Shown here piece by piece: positions 32,277-48,718 of a DNA stretch of 64,000 nt. This DNA is from a virus. The notes beneath the pieces were generated by a model, which was given only the letters and a program-made list of their open reading frames with translations, did no database searches and had not been told where the DNA came from. Position 1 is the stretch's first letter; the number at the start of each line of letters is the position of its first letter. The position numbers and the translations under genes are program-made. The stretch lies in IMG/VR virus record IMGVR_UViG_3300049020_000031, positions 77,501-141,500 of that record, one strand, 5' to 3'.

Positions 32277-32951
32277 CTAGAAATTGTCCCCGAAATGTTT
32301 CCTAACAGTCGAGGAATAAAAGTTACCGAACAGATTCATTGTAGCATGAAACCCAGCTATCAGGAGATCAGTCACTAGATATATCAGGAGAGCAACTGGC
32401 CACCAAACAACCACAAACGCAAGCAAGATCTTGTGGTCTTTTATTGATGGCACCAGCATTTCAACAAGATGTTTCCAATCATTTGGCCGACCTTGATATG
32501 AAACTTTAAACTCTTTCACCAATGAGTCATGCAACTGACGCAGATGATAATGGTATTCAGCGTTGCTGCCAGTTTTGAAATAATCCAAATCAAATTGCTT
32601 TTCCAACAAGTAATTGTTCTGAACCATCAGAAATTTGTTTCTAAAGTCGATGATGAGATTGTTCCAATAATATTTGGAACAAGCCATACCTATGATGAAA
32701 TAAAGTAAGTACCCACCAATGGCTTCCCAGCCATTGAAGGCGTAAAAGAATCTGATTCCGCCACCAACGAACCATAGACCTATTGAACTCCAAATCAGAG
32801 TCCAGAACAAAGGTAAGTTTTGATGATCCTCTTTAACATGACTGATCATGGTGAGGACTGGCCCGACCACCAACAGGGCGATTCCTAGCAGGAATCCGAA
32901 CCAAAATTCACGAAGTAGTTCAGTTCCAATAAAGAACAAAGTATCCATCAC
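32277..32951 (-). CDS. Hypothetical membrane protein (paralogue of 21402-22181)
   Basis: N-terminal TMs, YF.IG..CS.YYW, C-terminal VVWWP. Confidence 0.65.
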   Translation of the reverse strand: MMDTLFFIGTELLREFWFGFLLGIALLVVGPVLTMISHVKEDHQNLPLFWTLIWSSIGLWFVGGGIRFFYAFNGWEAIGGYLLYFIIGMACSKYYWNNLIIDFRNKFLMVQNNYLLEKQFDLDYFKTGSNAEYHYHLRQLHDSLVKEFKVSYQGRPNDWKHLVEMLVPSIKDHKILLAFVVVWWPVALLIYLVTDLLIAGFHATMNLFGNFYSSTVRKHFGDNF

Positions 32952-34117: not shown

Positions 34118-34346
34118 CGGTTTTCCTTTGACTCTCAGTATAACGCCTAAACATTGCCACCTTTCGAAGTCTGGGATAAAGAACTAGAAATCCACTCATG
34201 CCACCATTCACAAACAGATACGAGGCATAAAGATTCCATTTGCCTTGAAAGGTCACGTATTGATACAGCCCAAACAATGACCAAACCCAAACAGAAACGC
34301 CCAGAGCGATCCAGAATCTAATTCTGACGTTTCTGAGCGTGTTCAT
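34110..34346 (-). CDS. Small membrane protein
   Basis: Start MNTLRN just downstream of the tRNA; two TM segments. Confidence 0.55.
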   Translation of the reverse strand: MNTLRNVRIRFWIALGVSVWVWSLFGLYQYVTFQGKWNLYASYLFVNGGMSGFLVLYPRLRKVAMFRRYTESQRKTDV

Positions 34347-34348
34347 AT

Positions 34349-34423
34349 TGGTGACTCCTAGGGGATTCGAACCCCTGCTTCCGGTTTTAGAGACCGCCAC
34401 TCTGGCCGCTGAGTTAAGGAGTC
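34349..34423 (-). tRNA. Amber suppressor tRNA (anticodon CUA), CCA encoded
   Basis: Cloverleaf GACTCCT-TA-ACTC AGCGGCCA GAGT-G-GCGGT CTCTAAA ACCGG-AAGC-AGGGG TTCGAAT CCCCT-AGGAGTC-A-CCA; anticodon at 34388-34390. Confidence 0.92.
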
Positions 34424-34904: not shown

Positions 34905-35189
34905 TCAAAGTTGCGCGAAAACTACTTTGATATGGGCATCATCTTTCTTGTACCCATCCTTGGGGTTGGGGAAAGATTCCTGACTAGCCTTCACTTCAGT
35001 GATTTTGTCTTCACTGAACAGTCGCCATCCGGAGTGCGCGGGATCATCGCTGATCTGATATCCGCGTAGCTTCGATGCCCCGCTGGAGTCAGTCCCGTAG
35101 GTATGCGGTTCTACCAAACGTTCAGCACCGTTGTATGTGATGCTGATGCGTTTACGACTGTTGATTGATTCCACGATTGTGTTATTCAT
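34905..35189 (-). CDS. Stand-alone WYL-domain protein
   Basis: ISITY....RLVEPHTYG......LRGYQ......WRLF..DKI. Confidence 0.8.
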   Translation of the reverse strand: MNNTIVESINSRKRISITYNGAERLVEPHTYGTDSSGASKLRGYQISDDPAHSGWRLFSEDKITEVKASQESFPNPKDGYKKDDAHIKVVFAQL

Positions 35190-35325
35190 ATAGCCTTTGT
35201 TTTCAGATGGAGTGTCTGGGAGGGCGCGTTCTAAACATGCTGATCATCAACGCTATTGGTACTTCCCGAAGCCATTCTATGTTACAGTTCACACCGCTAC
35301 TTGATTAACGTGTAGCCATATGTAA

Positions 35326-35754
35326 TCAGTGGTTACACTCTCGAATCCACCAAACTATCGTTGCTTTTCTACTGGGTTCTCTTGATCTCTCACGAAAACC
35401 CAAGCTAATTAGAACTTTGACTGACGCCGTATTGTCAGACCAGGAGCCGGCATATACGTCACACTCTATTGAGCTGAGGAACATTTTCCCAGCCTGGACC
35501 GCTATGCCTTTGCGTCTATACGGACCAGCCACCCAGAATCCGAAATTGGATTCATTGTCATATGAAATTGTCCCCACGGGTACGCCATCCAAAAGGATGG
35601 CAGTTTCGCAGTTACAACCTTGAATCCATGAGTCCAGGGTTTCCATTTCCCAAGTAGATGAACCCTGACACCATTTTGAATCTTCCACCGTGTAGTAGGC
35701 GTAAAGATCCAGCGCCAAGCTAGGCGTCATGGGCGTCAGGGTTATCTGATTCAT
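35326..35754 (-). CDS. GNAT (RimJ/RimL-like) acetyltransferase
   Basis: GFWV..PYRRKGIA, N.AS.KVL..LGF. Confidence 0.75.
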   Translation of the reverse strand: MNQITLTPMTPSLALDLYAYYTVEDSKWCQGSSTWEMETLDSWIQGCNCETAILLDGVPVGTISYDNESNFGFWVAGPYRRKGIAVQAGKMFLSSIECDVYAGSWSDNTASVKVLISLGFRERSREPSRKATIVWWIRECNH

Positions 35755-35770
35755 CCGTTGGATGATACAT

Positions 35771-36346
35771 TCATTCCGTAGCTTCGGTGGCTTTCACTTC
35801 GGTAAGAAACGCGGTACCCTCTGCATCAATTCTGAGATCACATCGACGAACTCGAATCGATCCCTTCGTGGATGGGTGACTGGGGTTCTCCCTAGTTGTC
35901 CATGGGGCAGTGGCATCCACGTGATTCACATAGTAGGATTGTCCCTTGGCTTTCACCACCCACATGGGAACCCATGAAAATTCCAAATGCTTCTTGTTGA
36001 AGTGAAACTCAACATTTCGGACATCGTTGAGCTCAAGAGGGAATTGAGCACGATGTTCAGCCATCTCCTTTTTCATGGTGTAGATCTGGGTTGCCCTCTT
36101 CTTGCCTTCATCTCGCACCGTGAGCAGCTTTCTAGCCATAACTCGTTGCTCGCGCAGCTTTCTAGCAATCGAGCCCGCGGCCGGGTTTCTGGCTTTCTCA
36201 GCGAGTACCAGAGAACGCTTTGTTTCTCGGATTCGATTCGAGATCTCACTATAAACTTCACGATACGCTGTCCGCCACTCCAGGTATTCTTCGCGAGTCT
36301 TGAACACTGGTTTCATTCCATATACTGACATTATTTGCTCCCCCAA
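35771..36346 (-). CDS. Hypothetical two-domain phage protein
   Basis: F.TREEYLEWR..Y..IS..IR coiled coil; FHFNKKHL..PMWV.K.KG..YYVNHV. Confidence 0.7.
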   Translation of the reverse strand: MGEQIMSVYGMKPVFKTREEYLEWRTAYREVYSEISNRIRETKRSLVLAEKARNPAAGSIARKLREQRVMARKLLTVRDEGKKRATQIYTMKKEMAEHRAQFPLELNDVRNVEFHFNKKHLEFSWVPMWVVKAKGQSYYVNHVDATAPWTTRENPSHPSTKGSIRVRRCDLRIDAEGTAFLTEVKATEATE

Positions 36347-36603
36347 ATCAATCTAAAAGTTACCGCATCCGTGAGGCCTTCAAAAATTACGCCCACGGTG
36401 TACGAACAATCTGAACCCCAACCAACTTGTTCATAAGAACCCGTACAGTTGTCTCTACACCAATCCTTCACATCCAGCAAAGTGTTTTCAGTGAAGTTGA
36501 TGATCTTGACTAGACTCCAACTATCTGGATACTTTGCCTTGATCGACTCGACGGTGTTGTAATCCTCCCACTCGTCCTCTTCCATGAATTCATCTATATT
36601 CAT
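36331..36603 (-). CDS. Hypothetical protein (C-terminal motif family)
   Basis: VKDWCRDNC.G...VIFEGLTDAVTFRLIWG. Confidence 0.7.
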   Translation of the reverse strand: MNIDEFMEEDEWEDYNTVESIKAKYPDSWSLVKIINFTENTLLDVKDWCRDNCTGSYEQVGWGSDCSYTVGVIFEGLTDAVTFRLIWGSK

Positions 36604-36851
36604 TTCTTCCCCCGTTGTCCATGTTGGGTGATCTCATCACCCCTTGCCAAATAGAATGCAAGTGCATCACGTTCGTCGTTTATTAACCAGAAGTGATAGC
36701 GCTTTTCATCCTTAACTCTTCCCCTACCCTTGTACCAAGTGATCTGAATACCCATTGATTCTGCCAATTCCTTGAAATACGCTTGTGCATCTTTCCAAGT
36801 TGCAATTTGATCCGGAGTAAAGGGTGTTCTAACTACCCATGGATGAATCAT
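36600..36851 (-). CDS. Hypothetical protein (C-terminal motif family)
   Basis: WLINDERDALAFYLARG. Confidence 0.6.
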   Translation of the reverse strand: MIHPWVVRTPFTPDQIATWKDAQAYFKELAESMGIQITWYKGRGRVKDEKRYHFWLINDERDALAFYLARGDEITQHGQRGKK

Positions 36852-37123
36852 TTGTTCACCTCACCGACAATACGTCCACCCATAAGAGCAATGATCATCG
36901 CTTCCTCCTTGGTTTCCACGTAGAAGAAGTGAAACGACAAGTTGACTCCGGGTGATGGATTGGCATCACTGTATCCCAACCAATTACCTGGCGTTGTTTT
37001 ACCATTCGACCACTTGATGCTCTTGCCGCCAAGTTCATAGAATTGACGCATCATTTGTTCTCGCGAGGACCAGAATGATTCCAGGGAGTCGTCATACTGC
37101 AAGCAAACTCTGATTACTGGCAT
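36848..37123 (-). CDS. Hypothetical protein (C-terminal motif family)
   Basis: FYVETKEEAMIIALMGG. Confidence 0.6.
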   Translation of the reverse strand: MPVIRVCLQYDDSLESFWSSREQMMRQFYELGGKSIKWSNGKTTPGNWLGYSDANPSPGVNLSFHFFYVETKEEAMIIALMGGRIVGEVNK

Positions 37124-37542
37124 AGTGAGAACCTCTTGGTGAATGCGCGAACTTCATCCTTGCGAGCTGGGCCGATACCCAGAGCCGTGATGATTGGATC
37201 TCCGGTGAAATGCGGAGGCATGATGTGATGCTCATCGATAATCAATGAACATGGGATGCCAGCTTCCTTCGCAGCCTCGTAGGCTTTCAGGATGGCGTCT
37301 TGGTTCTTAGCTTTGAGGCAAACCTTAGTTCCAATTCCATCGCGCTGGTAGAACTGGTTGATTTCCGGCCTCTTGAGCCCTGAGTCGATGAATGAATTGA
37401 GATAAGCGTGCCCAGCTTGACTGGCGAGTTTGCCAGGGGGCATTGACAAGTCTTCGCGAATGATCGCGTACAGACGATACGGGTCTTCCTCTGATGGGGA
37501 CCGCGAGTGATTGATGTATTGGGAAACCTATTGCTTGTTCAT
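37114..37542 (-). CDS. pth2: Peptidyl-tRNA hydrolase type 2 (Pth2), with in-frame TAG at codon 5 (37528-37530)
   Basis: RLYAIIREDLSMPPGKLASQAGHA, KVCLKA and TALGIGP motifs. GAAAGG SD, then ATG AAC AAG CAA TAG GTT..., in frame with the rest (37542-37449 = 93 nt). Confidence 0.85.
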
Positions 37543-37681
37543 GATATACCTTTCAGTTAGTTGTTGAGGTTCATCCTCGGAATCTATTTAAGCACCGTTT
37601 CATTTTGATCGCAAGAACAATTTTGAATTGTTCGATATGGTCTTTATACTAAGAGTTGGTTATACTAATCAAGTCTTTTAT

Positions 37682-48249: not shown

Positions 48250-48277
48250 ATTATACTTCATTTGGTGAAAAACGCAA
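48250..48277 (-). promoter_or_regulatory. Sigma70-like promoter with TTCA-CCAAA-TGAA spacer
   Basis: TTGCGT-16-TATAAT. Confidence 0.65.
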
Positions 48278-48296
48278 CAAGTATTTGAATCCAATG

Positions 48297-48323
48297 AAAA
48301 AGAGTGGCTTGCGCCACTCTTTT
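48297..48323 (-). terminator. Terminator of the tmRNA gene
   Basis: aaaaagagtggc-ttgc-gccactctttt. Confidence 0.8.
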
Positions 48324-48324
48324 A

Positions 48325-48682
48325 AGGTCATGTTGTTACACAGTTGACCGAACTATGAATCAGGCCGCGATGGCTTGATTGTAGGAATTATCGTTTGCAG
48401 ATAAAAGTTTCGCATCCTTAACGACGTCGCATGTCGTGTTGTCAAGCTCCGATATCTCGCCGAGTCGATAGCCAGTTCACCCCCATCACAAGCGCTCTAG
48501 CGTTCCAAACTGCCTCAGCGAGAGTTGAACTCGCCCGCGTCTACATCGCAACAACTTTGACCCCGTAAGCGCCGGAATCGAACCGACGTGCTGGAGCGCT
48601 TGTGGTGGAGGTGGGGAGAGTCGAACTCCCGTGTTCGCCGCCTTCACTTTACCATCTGGTGGGTGATCCCACCTACAACAAT
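48325..48682 (-). ncRNA. ssrA: Two-piece (circularly permuted) tmRNA, tag (A)ANDNSYNQAIAA
   Basis: Acceptor piece ends GGGAG TTCGACT CTCCC CACCTCC A CCA (48603). Coding piece starts GGGGGTGAACTGGCTATCGAC (48484), giving G3.U70. Tag ORF GCA AAC GAT AAT...GCG GCC TGA at 48360-48398. Outer ends approximate. Confidence 0.9.
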
Positions 48683-48689
48683 TTCAATT

Positions 48690-48718
48690 AGTATAACACC
48701 ATGATATTTACACCGCAA
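48690..48718 (-). promoter_or_regulatory. Sigma70-like promoter of tmRNA
   Basis: TTGCGG-17-TATACT. Confidence 0.65.

What the first reader, a model, noticed from the sequence alone, without database searches (positions are those of the whole stretch)
37114..37555. Peptidyl-tRNA hydrolase gene gated by an in-frame amber codon (MNKQ-TAG), in a phage encoding an amber suppressor tRNA
Seen: the ORF caller starts pth2 at a TTG (37449), which omits the first beta-strand RLYAIIREDL. That frame stays open upstream to a TAG at 37528-37530. Four codons further up is an ATG (37542) with a GAAAGG SD. No ATG/GTG/TTG lies between the TAG and the strand, so full Pth2 apparently needs UAG readthrough. Established: Pth2 enzymes begin with a hydrophobic strand plus R.DL.M..GK.AAQ..HA; very short minigenes cause peptidyl-tRNA drop-off; prfB uses an internal stop as a release-factor sensor. 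Inference: this is a translational switch. Pth2 would be made only when UAG termination is weak, either because the phage CUA tRNA 3 kb away is expressed or because RF1 is inhibited or depleted. Otherwise only the MNKQ minigene peptide is made. I know of no described stop-codon-gated phage Pth circuit.
Basis: partly seen in the sequence, partly recalled or inferred. Interest (0 to 1): 0.9.

Follow-up and report, generated by a model that had tools for sequence, protein, structure and literature searches.

The report
Suppressor-tRNA-gated phage Pth2 gene
A giant soil phage places a UAG stop at codon 5 of a peptidyl-tRNA-hydrolase (Pth2) gene, so the enzyme can probably be made only when the phage's own UAG-reading tRNA overrides that stop; related and cultured jumbo phages share this design, which gives their puzzling suppressor tRNAs a concrete target.

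Summary
A GAAAGG ribosome-binding site and ATG-AAC-AAG-CAA are followed by TAG (37530-37528). That TAG is in frame with a complete Pth2 domain that has no ATG, GTG or TTG before its first strand. The TAG is present in contigs from three studies.

It is a conserved design. About 30 related loci keep a short ATG-led ORF (mostly 2-9 codons), one stop, then a Pth2 or Pth2-like frame. These include Phosso, Atu_ph07, RsoM2USA, GAP32, CBB, Serratia BF, XbC2, ME3, Arash and XacN1.

In all 22 phages where a tRNA could be checked, the stop matches a suppressor tRNA of that phage, the sole one wherever every detected tRNA was read:
- TAG with CUA: 18.
- TGA with UCA: 3, from two independent switches.
- A UAGG/+1-frame leader with a tRNA whose anticodon loop holds CCUA: 1.

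One subclade carries a second TAG inside the domain, so TAG must be translated there. Two ungated relatives have no suppressor. The genome is not recoded, and I found no other target.

Best reading (about 0.8): Pth2 synthesis needs the phage suppressor tRNA. Why it is gated remains an inference, and nothing here is experimental. I found no publication making this link. This scan had already noted the same module in other genomes.

The parts
37549..37554 (-). Shine-Dalgarno-like GAAAGG, 6 nt upstream of the leader ATG
   Evidence: Sequence read. Relatives have AGGAG/AAGGA/GAAAGG-type sites at the same spacing before their leader ATG.
37531..37542 (-). Mini-ORF ATG AAC AAG CAA (MNKQ)
   Evidence: Relatives have mini-ORFs, mostly of 2-9 codons (a few loci have a longer upstream ORF), of unrelated sequence (MKY, MKEL, MSL, MT, MAQ, MIGEHF and others), always in frame with the stop.
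37528..37530 (-). In-frame amber codon TAG, the gate (codon 5)
   Evidence: Present in contigs of three studies. Relatives have TAG, TGA or UAGG(+1) at the equivalent place, matching their suppressor tRNA.
37117..37527 (-). Pth2 coding frame after the gate (137 codons; N-terminal 17 residues probably disordered, then the full Pth2 fold). The predicted full product is MNKQ-X-VSQY..., 142 residues.
   Evidence: PF01981 at 77.7 bits. AF2 pLDDT 86.5. Foldseek matches to 2zv3, 1wn2 and 1q7s with TM 0.86-0.93 over the whole target. Residues E13-L27, upstream of the called TTG start, are invariant or conserved in relatives with synonymous codon changes.
37114..37116 (-). TAA stop of pth2
34349..34423 (-). 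Suppressor tRNA, anticodon CUA in a normal 7-nt loop (C-U-CUA-A-A), encoded CCA end; proposed reader of the gate
   Evidence: ARAGORN. It is the positional orthologue of the CUA, UCA and CCU(A) tRNAs of G001, G002, G003 and G004, which lie in the same gene order.
34905..37123 (-). Genes between pth2 and the tRNA: four of them (91, 83/90, 191 and 94 aa) are conserved in that order in relatives, plus a non-conserved GNAT gene
   Evidence: Synteny blast; Pfam scan.
48269..48695 (-). Two-piece (permuted) tmRNA gene, 11 kb upstream on the same strand; the same neighbourhood in G001-G004. Context only, not shown to be part of the switch.
   Evidence: ARAGORN.

Best explanation
This is a tRNA-gated translational switch. 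Ribosomes load at the GAAAGG site, start at the ATG at 37542 and translate Asn-Lys-Gln. UAG then enters the A site at codon 5. If release factor 1 wins, only a tetrapeptide is released, or it drops off as peptidyl-tRNA, and no enzyme is made. If the phage's own tRNA(CUA), encoded 2.7 kb downstream on the same strand, wins, an amino acid is inserted. Translation then continues into a 142-residue protein that holds the complete Pth2 fold. Pth2 output therefore reports the activity of the phage suppressor tRNA relative to termination.

Shown here: the architecture, its conservation, the covariation of stop codon and anticodon, the translated internal TAG in a subclade, joint absence of gate and suppressor in two ungated relatives, and the lack of other conserved targets.

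Inferred: that the tRNA is expressed, charged and reads the codon. The inserted amino acid is unknown; the internal TAG of the subclade aligns with Glu/Asp.

Inferred, with less confidence, is the purpose. The gated hydrolase is a distinct paralogue; an ungated canonical Pth2 also exists in this genome. It may be dosed in proportion to suppressor activity or termination weakness, to clear by-products of readthrough or slow termination. Placing the gate in the first few codons would make failed attempts cheap, and release factors act poorly on very short nascent chains.
For: 1) The domain starts upstream of any canonical start.

2) The same layout occurs in all close relatives (L001-L007, L141-L143, L150-L167). 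It also occurs in a divergent Pth2-like clade of cultured jumbo phages: RsoM2USA, GAP32, CBB, Serratia BF, XbC2, ME3, Arash and XacN1. Those genes are mostly unannotated in GenBank.

3) Wherever a tRNA could be examined, the stop matches a suppressor tRNA of that phage. It is the sole suppressor wherever every detected tRNA was read: whole-genome ARAGORN for G001, G003 and Atu_ph07, tRNA regions for GAP32, CBB, BF, XbC2 and Arash, and most but not all tRNA matches for RsoM2USA. TAG/CUA: window, G001, Phosso, G005, RsoM2USA, L142, L154, L159, L160, L166, L167, GAP32, CBB, BF, XbC2, Arash, ME3, XacN1. TGA/UCA: G002, G003, Atu_ph07. UAGG(+1)/CCUA loop: G004. No mismatches were found (papers PMC6102473, PMC8504454, PMC5852040).

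4) On the Pth2 tree, TGA arose twice and the +1 form once, each time with the matching tRNA change. The three tRNA types occupy the same syntenic slot.

5) L155, L157, L158, L159, L161/L162 and L166 carry a second TAG inside the domain, at a Pro-Glu/Asp position. Their contigs are not TAG-recoded overall.

6) The ungated relatives RaK2 and Kikimora have no suppressor among all the tRNAs detected in them.

7) No other conserved in-frame TAG or TGA and no other such leader was found in G000, G001 or Atu_ph07.

8) In several loci the tRNA ends 20-450 nt upstream of the leader, which suggests one transcript.
Against: Nothing is experimental. Expression, charging and identity of the tRNA are unknown, and no peptide or ribosome-profiling data exist. 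TAG ends 17 of 150 long ORFs of this phage. TGA ends about a third of the genes in the UCA-carrying phages G003 and Atu_ph07, with only a modest drop compared with G001 (34% against 43%) and no extra back-up stops. An efficient general suppressor should therefore be costly, so suppression must be weak or context-favoured at the leader. A few loci (L164, XacN1, and GTG right after TGA in G002/G003) also offer a start codon shortly after the stop, so some product could arise without readthrough there. The record is only about 33% of the genome, so further tRNAs or targets of this particular phage may lie outside it.
Confidence: 0.8

Rival explanations
1. Termination-reinitiation. The mini-ORF only loads ribosomes. 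After release at the stop, the ribosome restarts at a nearby, often non-canonical, codon and makes Pth2 without any suppressor tRNA.
For: The stop is followed by GTG in G002/G003, ATT in Atu_ph07, RsoM2USA, ME3 and L152, and an ATG 4 codons later in L164 and XacN1. Stop-start coupling is common in phages.
Against: In the window the next codon is GTT, which is not a known start; others have ACT, GAA, AAA, AAT or CTG. This model does not explain why the stop type tracks the tRNA anticodon in 22 of 22 phages across three independent switches. It also does not explain the in-domain TAG of the L155-L166 subclade, or the +1 arrangement of L150/L151.
Confidence: 0.1
2. The suppressor does read the gate, but the gate has no regulatory role. 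It is a neutral or 'addictive' dependency that merely ties the retention of the tRNA and the hydrolase gene to each other, and the tRNA's real job is elsewhere, such as readthrough of host or phage terminators.
For: Module-like co-inheritance across very different phages. In some loci the tRNA and pth2 are probably co-transcribed, which leaves little room for timing control. phiM12 carries a UUA suppressor without a gated pth2, so suppressors can have other uses.
Against: Switches of anticodon (CUA to UCA twice, and to a UAGG/+1 reader) change every genome-wide target, yet were tolerated as long as the leader changed too. That points to the leader as the constrained target. No other conserved target was found.
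Confidence: 0.07
3. Decaying or pseudogenised pth2, or a sequencing error at the TAG.
For: One relative (L007/L165, G005) has a frameshifted pth2 body.
Against: The TAG is seen in three studies. The frame after it is intact, with 70-77% amino-acid identity to relatives and many synonymous changes. The stop is kept in about 30 loci.
Confidence: 0.01
4. UAG serves as an initiation codon, read by an initiator-like tRNA(CUA).
For: Engineered initiator tRNAs with a CUA anticodon can start at UAG in E. coli (from memory, not checked here).
Against: The window's tRNA has a paired 1:72 end and lacks three G-C pairs at the base of the anticodon stem. The ribosome-binding site is spaced for the ATG, not the TAG. 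Mini-ORF length varies (mostly 2-9 codons) but always stays in frame. Internal TAGs exist.
Confidence: 0.02

Closest known systems
Stop-codon-recoded phages with their own suppressor tRNAs (TAG read as Gln, 'code 15'; TGA read as Trp; crAss-like and Lak phages; bioRxiv 10.1101/2021.08.26.457843, PMC7886860, PMC9523058)
   Same: A phage-encoded suppressor tRNA is needed to translate in-frame stops in phage genes, and this dependence is proposed to control when those genes are made.
   Different: Here the genome keeps the standard code: TAG ends 11% of long ORFs. One gene is affected. The stop sits in the first few codons after a mini-ORF. The stop and the anticodon co-vary as a pair, including one +1/quadruplet variant.
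prfB (RF2) autoregulation through an early in-frame UGA
   Same: An early in-frame stop makes the yield of a translation-termination-related protein depend on competition between release factor and an alternative decoding event.
   Different: prfB uses a +1 frameshift by ordinary tRNAs and senses its own product. Here the alternative event is decoding by a dedicated phage tRNA, and the product is a Pth2-type hydrolase, not the factor that reads the stop.
Lambda bar and other minigenes, which cause peptidyl-tRNA drop-off and need Pth
   Same: A very short ORF with a good ribosome-binding site, of the kind that yields short peptidyl-tRNAs, and a direct thematic link to peptidyl-tRNA hydrolase.
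   Different: Minigenes are stand-alone and toxic when Pth is limiting. Here the mini-ORF is fused in frame, through a stop, to a hydrolase gene. Drop-off was not tested.
Leaky-stop readthrough in viruses (Q-beta A1 protein, MuLV gag-pol)
   Same: A single stop codon is read through to make a longer protein.
   Different: Those cases use host near-cognate tRNAs at low frequency to set a ratio of two functional proteins. Here the short product is a 2-9-residue peptide, and a cognate, virus-encoded suppressor is present.
Suppressor tRNAs reported without a target in jumbo phages Atu_ph07, RsoM2USA, XacN1 and AP-J-162 (PMC6102473, PMC8504454, PMC5852040, PMC11242549)
   Same: These are the same tRNAs. 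The papers list a UCA or CUA tRNA and Pth genes separately.
   Different: None links the two. The XacN1 paper states that no target could be identified. The gated gene is truncated or missing in the GenBank annotations.

Membership tests
PTH2 peptidyl-tRNA hydrolase family (PF01981) | Sequence match to the family profile above Pfam's gathering score, over the whole domain | tested here: met
   77.7 bits against a cut-off of 23; profile positions 1-115 align to residues 17-136.
PTH2 peptidyl-tRNA hydrolase family (PF01981) | Pth2 alpha/beta fold | tested here: met
   AF2 model with pLDDT 86.5. Foldseek matches to 2zv3, 1wn2, 1q7s and 1xty with target TM-score 0.83-0.93.
PTH2 peptidyl-tRNA hydrolase family (PF01981) | Conserved Lys of the G-K motif and Asp of the I-x-D motif, held to be catalytic (assignment recalled from memory) | tested here: inconclusive
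   K33 and D98 are invariant in 15 sequences. However, the canonical D-A-G-x-T is replaced by D-E/Q-H-H in this clade, and the catalytic assignment was not checked against a paper.
PTH2 peptidyl-tRNA hydrolase family (PF01981) | Hydrolysis of peptidyl-tRNA | not testable with these tools
Stop-codon-recoded phage (code 15 / code 4) | Phage-encoded suppressor tRNA for the reassigned stop | tested here: met
   tRNA(CUA) at 34349-34423.
Stop-codon-recoded phage (code 15 / code 4) | The reassigned stop occurs in frame in many genes and is not used as a terminator in the recoded part | tested here: not met
   Reading TAG through does not improve coding coverage more than reading TGA or TAA through. 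TAG ends 17 of 150 long ORFs. No conserved internal TAG was found in coding frames.
prfB-type autoregulatory recoding | Early in-frame stop within the regulated gene | tested here: met
   TAG at codon 5.
prfB-type autoregulatory recoding | The gene product is the factor that decodes that stop, and bypass is by +1 frameshift at a slippery site with an internal SD | tested here: not met
   The product is Pth2 and the downstream frame is frame 0. Only the L150/L151 lineage needs a +1 shift.
Termination-reinitiation (stop-start coupling) | A usable start codon overlapping or adjoining the stop | tested here: not met
   GTT follows the TAG, and the first ATG/GTG/TTG comes 27 codons later, inside the fold.
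Amber suppressor tRNA | Cloverleaf with a 7-nt anticodon loop, U33, CUA at positions 34-36 and a purine at 37 | tested here: met
   ARAGORN fold, loop C-U-C-U-A-A-A, encoded CCA.
Amber suppressor tRNA | Aminoacylated and active in decoding UAG | not testable with these tools
   No RNA run holds the locus. The identity elements are not diagnostic, because the tRNA bodies are very diverse.
Frameshift-suppressor (quadruplet-reading) tRNA; applies to relative G004 only | Enlarged anticodon loop or arm carrying a 4-base complement of the shifted codon | tested here: inconclusive
   The loop C-G-C-C-U-A-A contains CCUA, the complement of UAGG, and has G33. Infernal aligns 9 loop positions where the model has 7. 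ARAGORN reads a 7-nt loop with CCU on a longer stem. The same result would follow from out-of-frame reading of AGG.

The most novel reading that the evidence does not exclude
The suppressor tRNA is a dedicated regulatory RNA whose main or only conserved job is to open this one gene. Leader and tRNA would form an orthogonal codon-anticodon pair that works as a ratiometric sensor of termination capacity (tRNA against release factor) and sets the dose of a specialised Pth2-like hydrolase. In one lineage (G004/L150) the pair would have evolved into natural quadruplet (UAGG) or +1 decoding. As far as I know, that would be the first natural frameshift-suppressor tRNA with a defined cis target.
Probability: 0.35. 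Interest if true: 0.9.

Novelty: new variant of a known kind. Interest (0 to 1): 0.8.

Why it matters
Several papers list a lone suppressor tRNA in standard-code jumbo phages and say its target is unknown or merely 'several potential genes' (Atu_ph07, RsoM2USA, XacN1). This result names a specific, testable target that cultured phages of Agrobacterium, Sinorhizobium, Ralstonia, Xanthomonas, Cronobacter, Pectobacterium, Serratia, Acinetobacter and Salmonella all keep. It also shows that gene callers systematically truncate or miss this gene.

The result gives a minimal natural example of tRNA-dependent gene control: one tRNA, one codon, one gene. That may be a stepping stone toward whole-genome stop-codon recoding. 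The stop and anticodon have co-evolved as a pair, and in one lineage the pair needs a +1 or four-base reading. Such pairs are of direct interest for genetic-code expansion.

Tried and rejected
- **Whole-genome recoding.** Rejected: reading TAG through gains no more coding coverage than reading TGA or TAA through, and TAG is used as a terminator.
- **Other in-frame TAG targets.**
  - The TAG at 32279 between two same-frame ORFs is an ordinary junction (TAGGAG, then ATG), and the downstream gene stands alone in G001.
  - The TAG at 34186 is not a leader.
  - My first homology screen for stops inside alignments was swamped by antisense and off-frame ORF matches. After filtering by coding potential it left no TAG or TGA case.
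  - Leader scans found only pth2. The filters are rough, so the search is not exhaustive.
- **megablast of the locus against phage records.** No match.
- **First AlphaFold run, with 5 sequences.** Too weak to use (pLDDT 47). A 15-sequence alignment fixed this.
- **tRNA identity.** Neither acceptor and discriminator bases nor blastn against 88 phage tRNAs points to an isoacceptor family, so the inserted amino acid stays open.
- **Promoter scan.** No convincing sigma-70 site before the leader. A 10/12 match at 34688-34660 lies upstream of the tRNA, but hits were no more frequent than in shuffled sequence.
- **RNA evidence.** No RNA holder was listed for the locus, so expression could not be examined.
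- **Remaining tRNAs of the G004 phage.** The metagenome records behind L151, L156, L160 and L164 are not held, so they could not be searched whole.
- **G006 (L143).** This is a 17% fragment without a suppressor on it and is uninformative.
- **GNAT gene between pth2 and the tRNA.** It is not conserved in relatives and was dropped as a module part.
- **L156 (1.1-Mb contig).** Its upstream region was not resolved.
Full report
**1. What is in the window**

All features below lie on the minus strand:
- GAAAGG at 37554-37549.
- Six bases later, ATG at 37542-37540, followed by AAC AAG CAA.
- TAG at 37530-37528.
- Then 137 open codons that end at TAA, 37116-37114.

The first ATG, GTG or TTG after the TAG is the TTG at 37449, which is codon 27 and is the start an ORF caller picks.

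The domain begins well upstream of that TTG:
- Pfam PTH2 aligns profile position 1 to residue 17 of the post-TAG frame (E 1e-21).
- The solved Pth2 chain 2zv3 aligns from its residue 3 to residue 19.
- With a 15-sequence alignment, AlphaFold gives a confident model (pLDDT 86.5). Residues 1-17 are disordered, and the first strand is residues 18-24, RLYAIIR.
- Foldseek superposes the model on Pth2 structures over their whole length, with target TM-score up to 0.93.

A TTG start would therefore remove a core strand. Relatives read CTT, CTC or CTG at that Leu codon, so the TTG is not a conserved start.

Contigs from three separate studies cover the leader with no difference at the TAG.

**2. Genome context**

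The window is the last 64 kb of a 141.5-kb viral record, estimated to be 33% complete. The record holds one tRNA, with anticodon CUA, at window 34349-34423. It also holds a permuted tmRNA gene at 48269-48695. Both are on the pth2 strand.

The genome uses the standard code:
- TAG ends 17 of 150 long ORFs.
- Reading TAG through does not extend coding more than reading TGA or TAA through.
- After filtering by coding potential, no TAG or TGA lies inside a conserved protein alignment in this genome, G001 (424 kb), Atu_ph07, G004 or G005.
- The other same-frame TAG, at 32279, is a plain gene junction.

The record also carries a second, canonical Pth2 with an ordinary ATG at G000:1223-1633. It is 25% identical to the gated one.

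**3. The leader is conserved**

The two closest cultured relatives have the same layout, and both GenBank annotations start the gene at the internal Met.
- Sinorhizobium phage Phosso: ATG AAG TAT TAG GTT..., in frame with pth2.
- Agrobacterium phage Atu_ph07: ATG ATT GGC GAA CAC TTT TGA ATT....

IMG/VR and metagenome relatives (39-77% amino-acid identity) show leaders such as:
- MKEL-TAG and MSL-TAG
- MQPHT-TAG
- MT-TAG and MTES-TAG
- MTIEKDYGY-TAG
- MKHLDHR-TGA and MNHLDHR-TGA

The mini-ORF peptides are unrelated in sequence, mostly 2-9 codons long, and preceded by a ribosome-binding site. A few loci (L155, L157, L166, L167) have a longer upstream ORF instead.

A much more divergent Pth2-like clade repeats the design in cultured jumbo phages. 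PF01981 scores are 25 bits for RsoM2USA and 16-18 bits, below the cut-off, for GAP32 and ME3.

| Phage | Leader |
|---|---|
| RsoM2USA | ML-TAG |
| GAP32, CBB | MAQ-TAG |
| Serratia BF | MTH-TAG |
| XbC2 | MAH-TAG |
| Acinetobacter ME3 | MT-TAG |
| Salmonella Arash | ML-TAG |
| XacN1 | MK-TAG, four codons before the annotated ATG of ORF364 (an HD plus Pth2-like fusion) |

In most of these records the gene is unannotated or truncated.

Canonical phage Pth2 genes have ordinary starts. This holds for phiM12, Xoo-sp13, XacN1 ORF295, Phabba, prophi86-1, Astolliot and two uncultured huge phages.

**4. Stop and anticodon co-vary**

Wherever a tRNA could be examined, the leader's stop matches a suppressor tRNA of that phage.

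It is the sole suppressor wherever every detected tRNA was read:
- by whole-genome ARAGORN scan for G001, G003 and Atu_ph07;
- by scan of the tRNA-bearing regions for GAP32, CBB, BF, XbC2 and Arash.

For RsoM2USA, loci around 30 of its 42 tRNA matches were read, and the published annotation lists CUA as its only suppressor (PMC8504454).

| Leader stop | tRNA | Phages or loci |
|---|---|---|
| TAG | CUA | window, G001, Phosso, G005, RsoM2USA, L142 (two copies), L154, L159, L160, L166, L167, GAP32, CBB, BF, XbC2, Arash, ME3, XacN1 |
| TGA | UCA | G002, G003 (complete genome), Atu_ph07 |
| UAGG, +1 frame | loop C-G-C-C-U-A-A | G004 |

- The XacN1 entry rests on its paper, PMC5852040.
- For Atu_ph07, the UCA tRNA lies 230 kb from pth2 and is the genome's only suppressor.

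The tRNA usually lies 0.02-6 kb from pth2 on the same strand.

In G000, G001, G002, G003 and G004 the gene order is shared: tmRNA, pth2, four conserved small genes, then the tRNA. The CUA, UCA and CCU(A) tRNAs are therefore positional orthologues.

On a tree of 31 Pth2 sequences:
- The gated genes form one clade (SH-aLRT 99), and TAG is the commonest state.
- TGA arose twice: once in Atu_ph07, sister to TAG-type Phosso (99), and once in G002/G003 (97).
- The +1 type arose once.
- Each switch is matched by the tRNA.

Two ungated relatives have no suppressor among all the tRNAs detected in them:
- RaK2, which has gained an ATG.
- Kikimora, which sits inside the gated clade.

**5. The +1 variant**

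In L151 (the G004 phage) and in the independent contig L150, the mini-ORF reads ATG AAC ... ATG CAG TAG GTY CTN TAG. Here pth2 lies in the +1 frame, beginning at the AGG that overlaps the TAG. The two sequences differ at several leader positions but keep this arrangement, so it is not an assembly error.

The syntenic tRNA of G004 is unusual in two respects:
- Its anticodon loop is C-G-C-C-U-A-A, which holds CCUA, the exact complement of UAGG, and has G where U33 is almost universal.
- Infernal aligns nine loop positions where the tRNA model has seven.

Both a four-base reading and out-of-frame reading of AGG would put the ribosome into the pth2 frame. I cannot tell which occurs.

**6. TAG is translated**

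L155, L157, L158, L159, L161/L162 and L166 have a second in-frame TAG inside the Pth2 domain (...DP-TAG-LAKEYQ...). It aligns with Glu or Asp in the other members. These contigs are not TAG-recoded overall. Where a tRNA lies on the contig (L159, L166), it is CUA. No restart downstream of the leader could produce a folded enzyme there.

**7. Mechanism and its limits**

The best-supported reading is that the phage suppressor tRNA decodes the leader stop, so the hydrolase is made in proportion to suppressor activity relative to release factor.

Why the gene is gated is an inference. Three facts bear on it:
- The suppressed stop still ends many phage genes. TGA ends 34% of genes in UCA-carrying G003, against 43% in CUA-carrying G001, and no extra back-up stops follow it. 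General suppression is therefore probably weak.
- From established minigene work, release factors act poorly on very short peptidyl-tRNAs. That would favour the tRNA at codons 3-10 and make failed attempts cheap.
- Anticodon switches were tolerated as long as the leader followed. This suggests the leader is the constrained target, perhaps the only one.

Plausible purposes are dosing a specialised hydrolase to the load created by readthrough or slow termination, or sensing termination capacity. The neighbouring phage tmRNA fits the first idea. No tool result separates the two.

**8. Rivals**

- Reinitiation is contradicted by GTT after the stop in the window, by the covariation, by the internal TAGs and by the +1 lineage.
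- A pseudogene or sequencing error is contradicted.
- Initiation at UAG by an initiator-like tRNA is unlikely, given the tRNA's paired 1:72 end and the spacing of the ribosome-binding site.
- A non-regulatory 'dependency' cannot be excluded.

**9. Prior knowledge**

- The Atu_ph07, RsoM2USA, XacN1 and AP-J-162 papers report the suppressor tRNA and, except the RsoM2USA paper, Pth genes, but never link the two. The XacN1 authors state that they could not identify a target.
- A jumbo-phage comparative review notes PTH2 but does not mention suppressors.
- Four full-text searches found no description of the link.
- Within this scan, the same module was already noted from the tRNA side in this genome and in at least 26 other genomes. 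Those are unchecked AI notes. I reached the result independently before reading them, and they do not count as evidence.

Noticed in passing
G000:C1:1223-1633 (+), 76 kb before the window: A second, canonical Pth2 gene with an ordinary ATG start (MNMQDYEKQIIVLRKDLDMGKGK...), 25% identical to the gated one. The phage therefore has one ungated and one gated paralogue, as Atu_ph07 does (gp680 and gp256).
   Followed up: partly
window 35326-35754 (-): A GNAT acetyltransferase gene (PF13302, E 1.7e-7) lies between pth2 and the suppressor tRNA. It is not conserved at this place in G001-G004. GNAT toxins that acetylate aminoacyl-tRNA are countered by Pth in bacteria (from memory), so the neighbourhood may be worth a look.
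   Followed up: partly
G001 (IMGVR_UViG_3300017565_000001), minus strand near 282572: An RF1-like ORF (RVPPTERKGRVHTS ... GGQ) that has no ATG/GTG/TTG for 100 codons after an in-frame TGA preceded by MKHFTKNG. It may be another unusual start or recoding site. No RF-1 domain was found in the held part of G000.
   Followed up: no
L151:9959-10020 and L150:240-300; tRNA at L043:1501-1578: The leader needs a +1 shift at CAG-UAG-G. The syntenic tRNA has the loop C-G-C-C-U-A-A (G33, CCUA) and an enlarged anticodon arm. It is a candidate natural four-base or +1 decoder.
   Followed up: partly
L142:1944-2020 and G001:215231-215318: ARAGORN reports tRNAs with four-base 'anticodons': ggaa directly downstream of pth2 in the 608-kb phage, and caca in G001. 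Their function is unknown.
   Followed up: no
L219:400-470 (XacN1, AP018399.1 near 243740): ORF364 of XacN1 is an HD-domain plus Pth2-like fusion. It is preceded by AGAGG, 9 nt, then ATG AAG TAG in frame, four codons before its annotated ATG. This is a candidate target for the CUA suppressors that the XacN1 paper could not place.
   Followed up: partly
phiM12 (KF381361.1) 106714-106786: A tRNA with anticodon UUA (ochre suppressor) in a phage whose Pth2 has a normal start. No TAA-gated gene was looked for.
   Followed up: no
L007 / L165 (G005): The pth2 body is frameshifted after KAKNL, and the ORF ends at 81 residues, although the leader and the adjacent CUA tRNA are intact. This is either decay or an assembly error.
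   Followed up: no
L163:80-130: The leader has two in-frame TAGs (MKEFG-TAG-ILDT-TAG-VSP...).
   Followed up: no
window 37543: The base just before the leader ATG differs (G>A on the plus strand) in the contig of one other study (X4). The TAG itself is unchanged.
   Followed up: yes
window 48269-48695 (-): A permuted two-piece tmRNA gene is kept 5-11 kb upstream of pth2 in G000, G001, G002, G003 and G004. Together they form a conserved 'ribosome-rescue' neighbourhood.
   Followed up: partly
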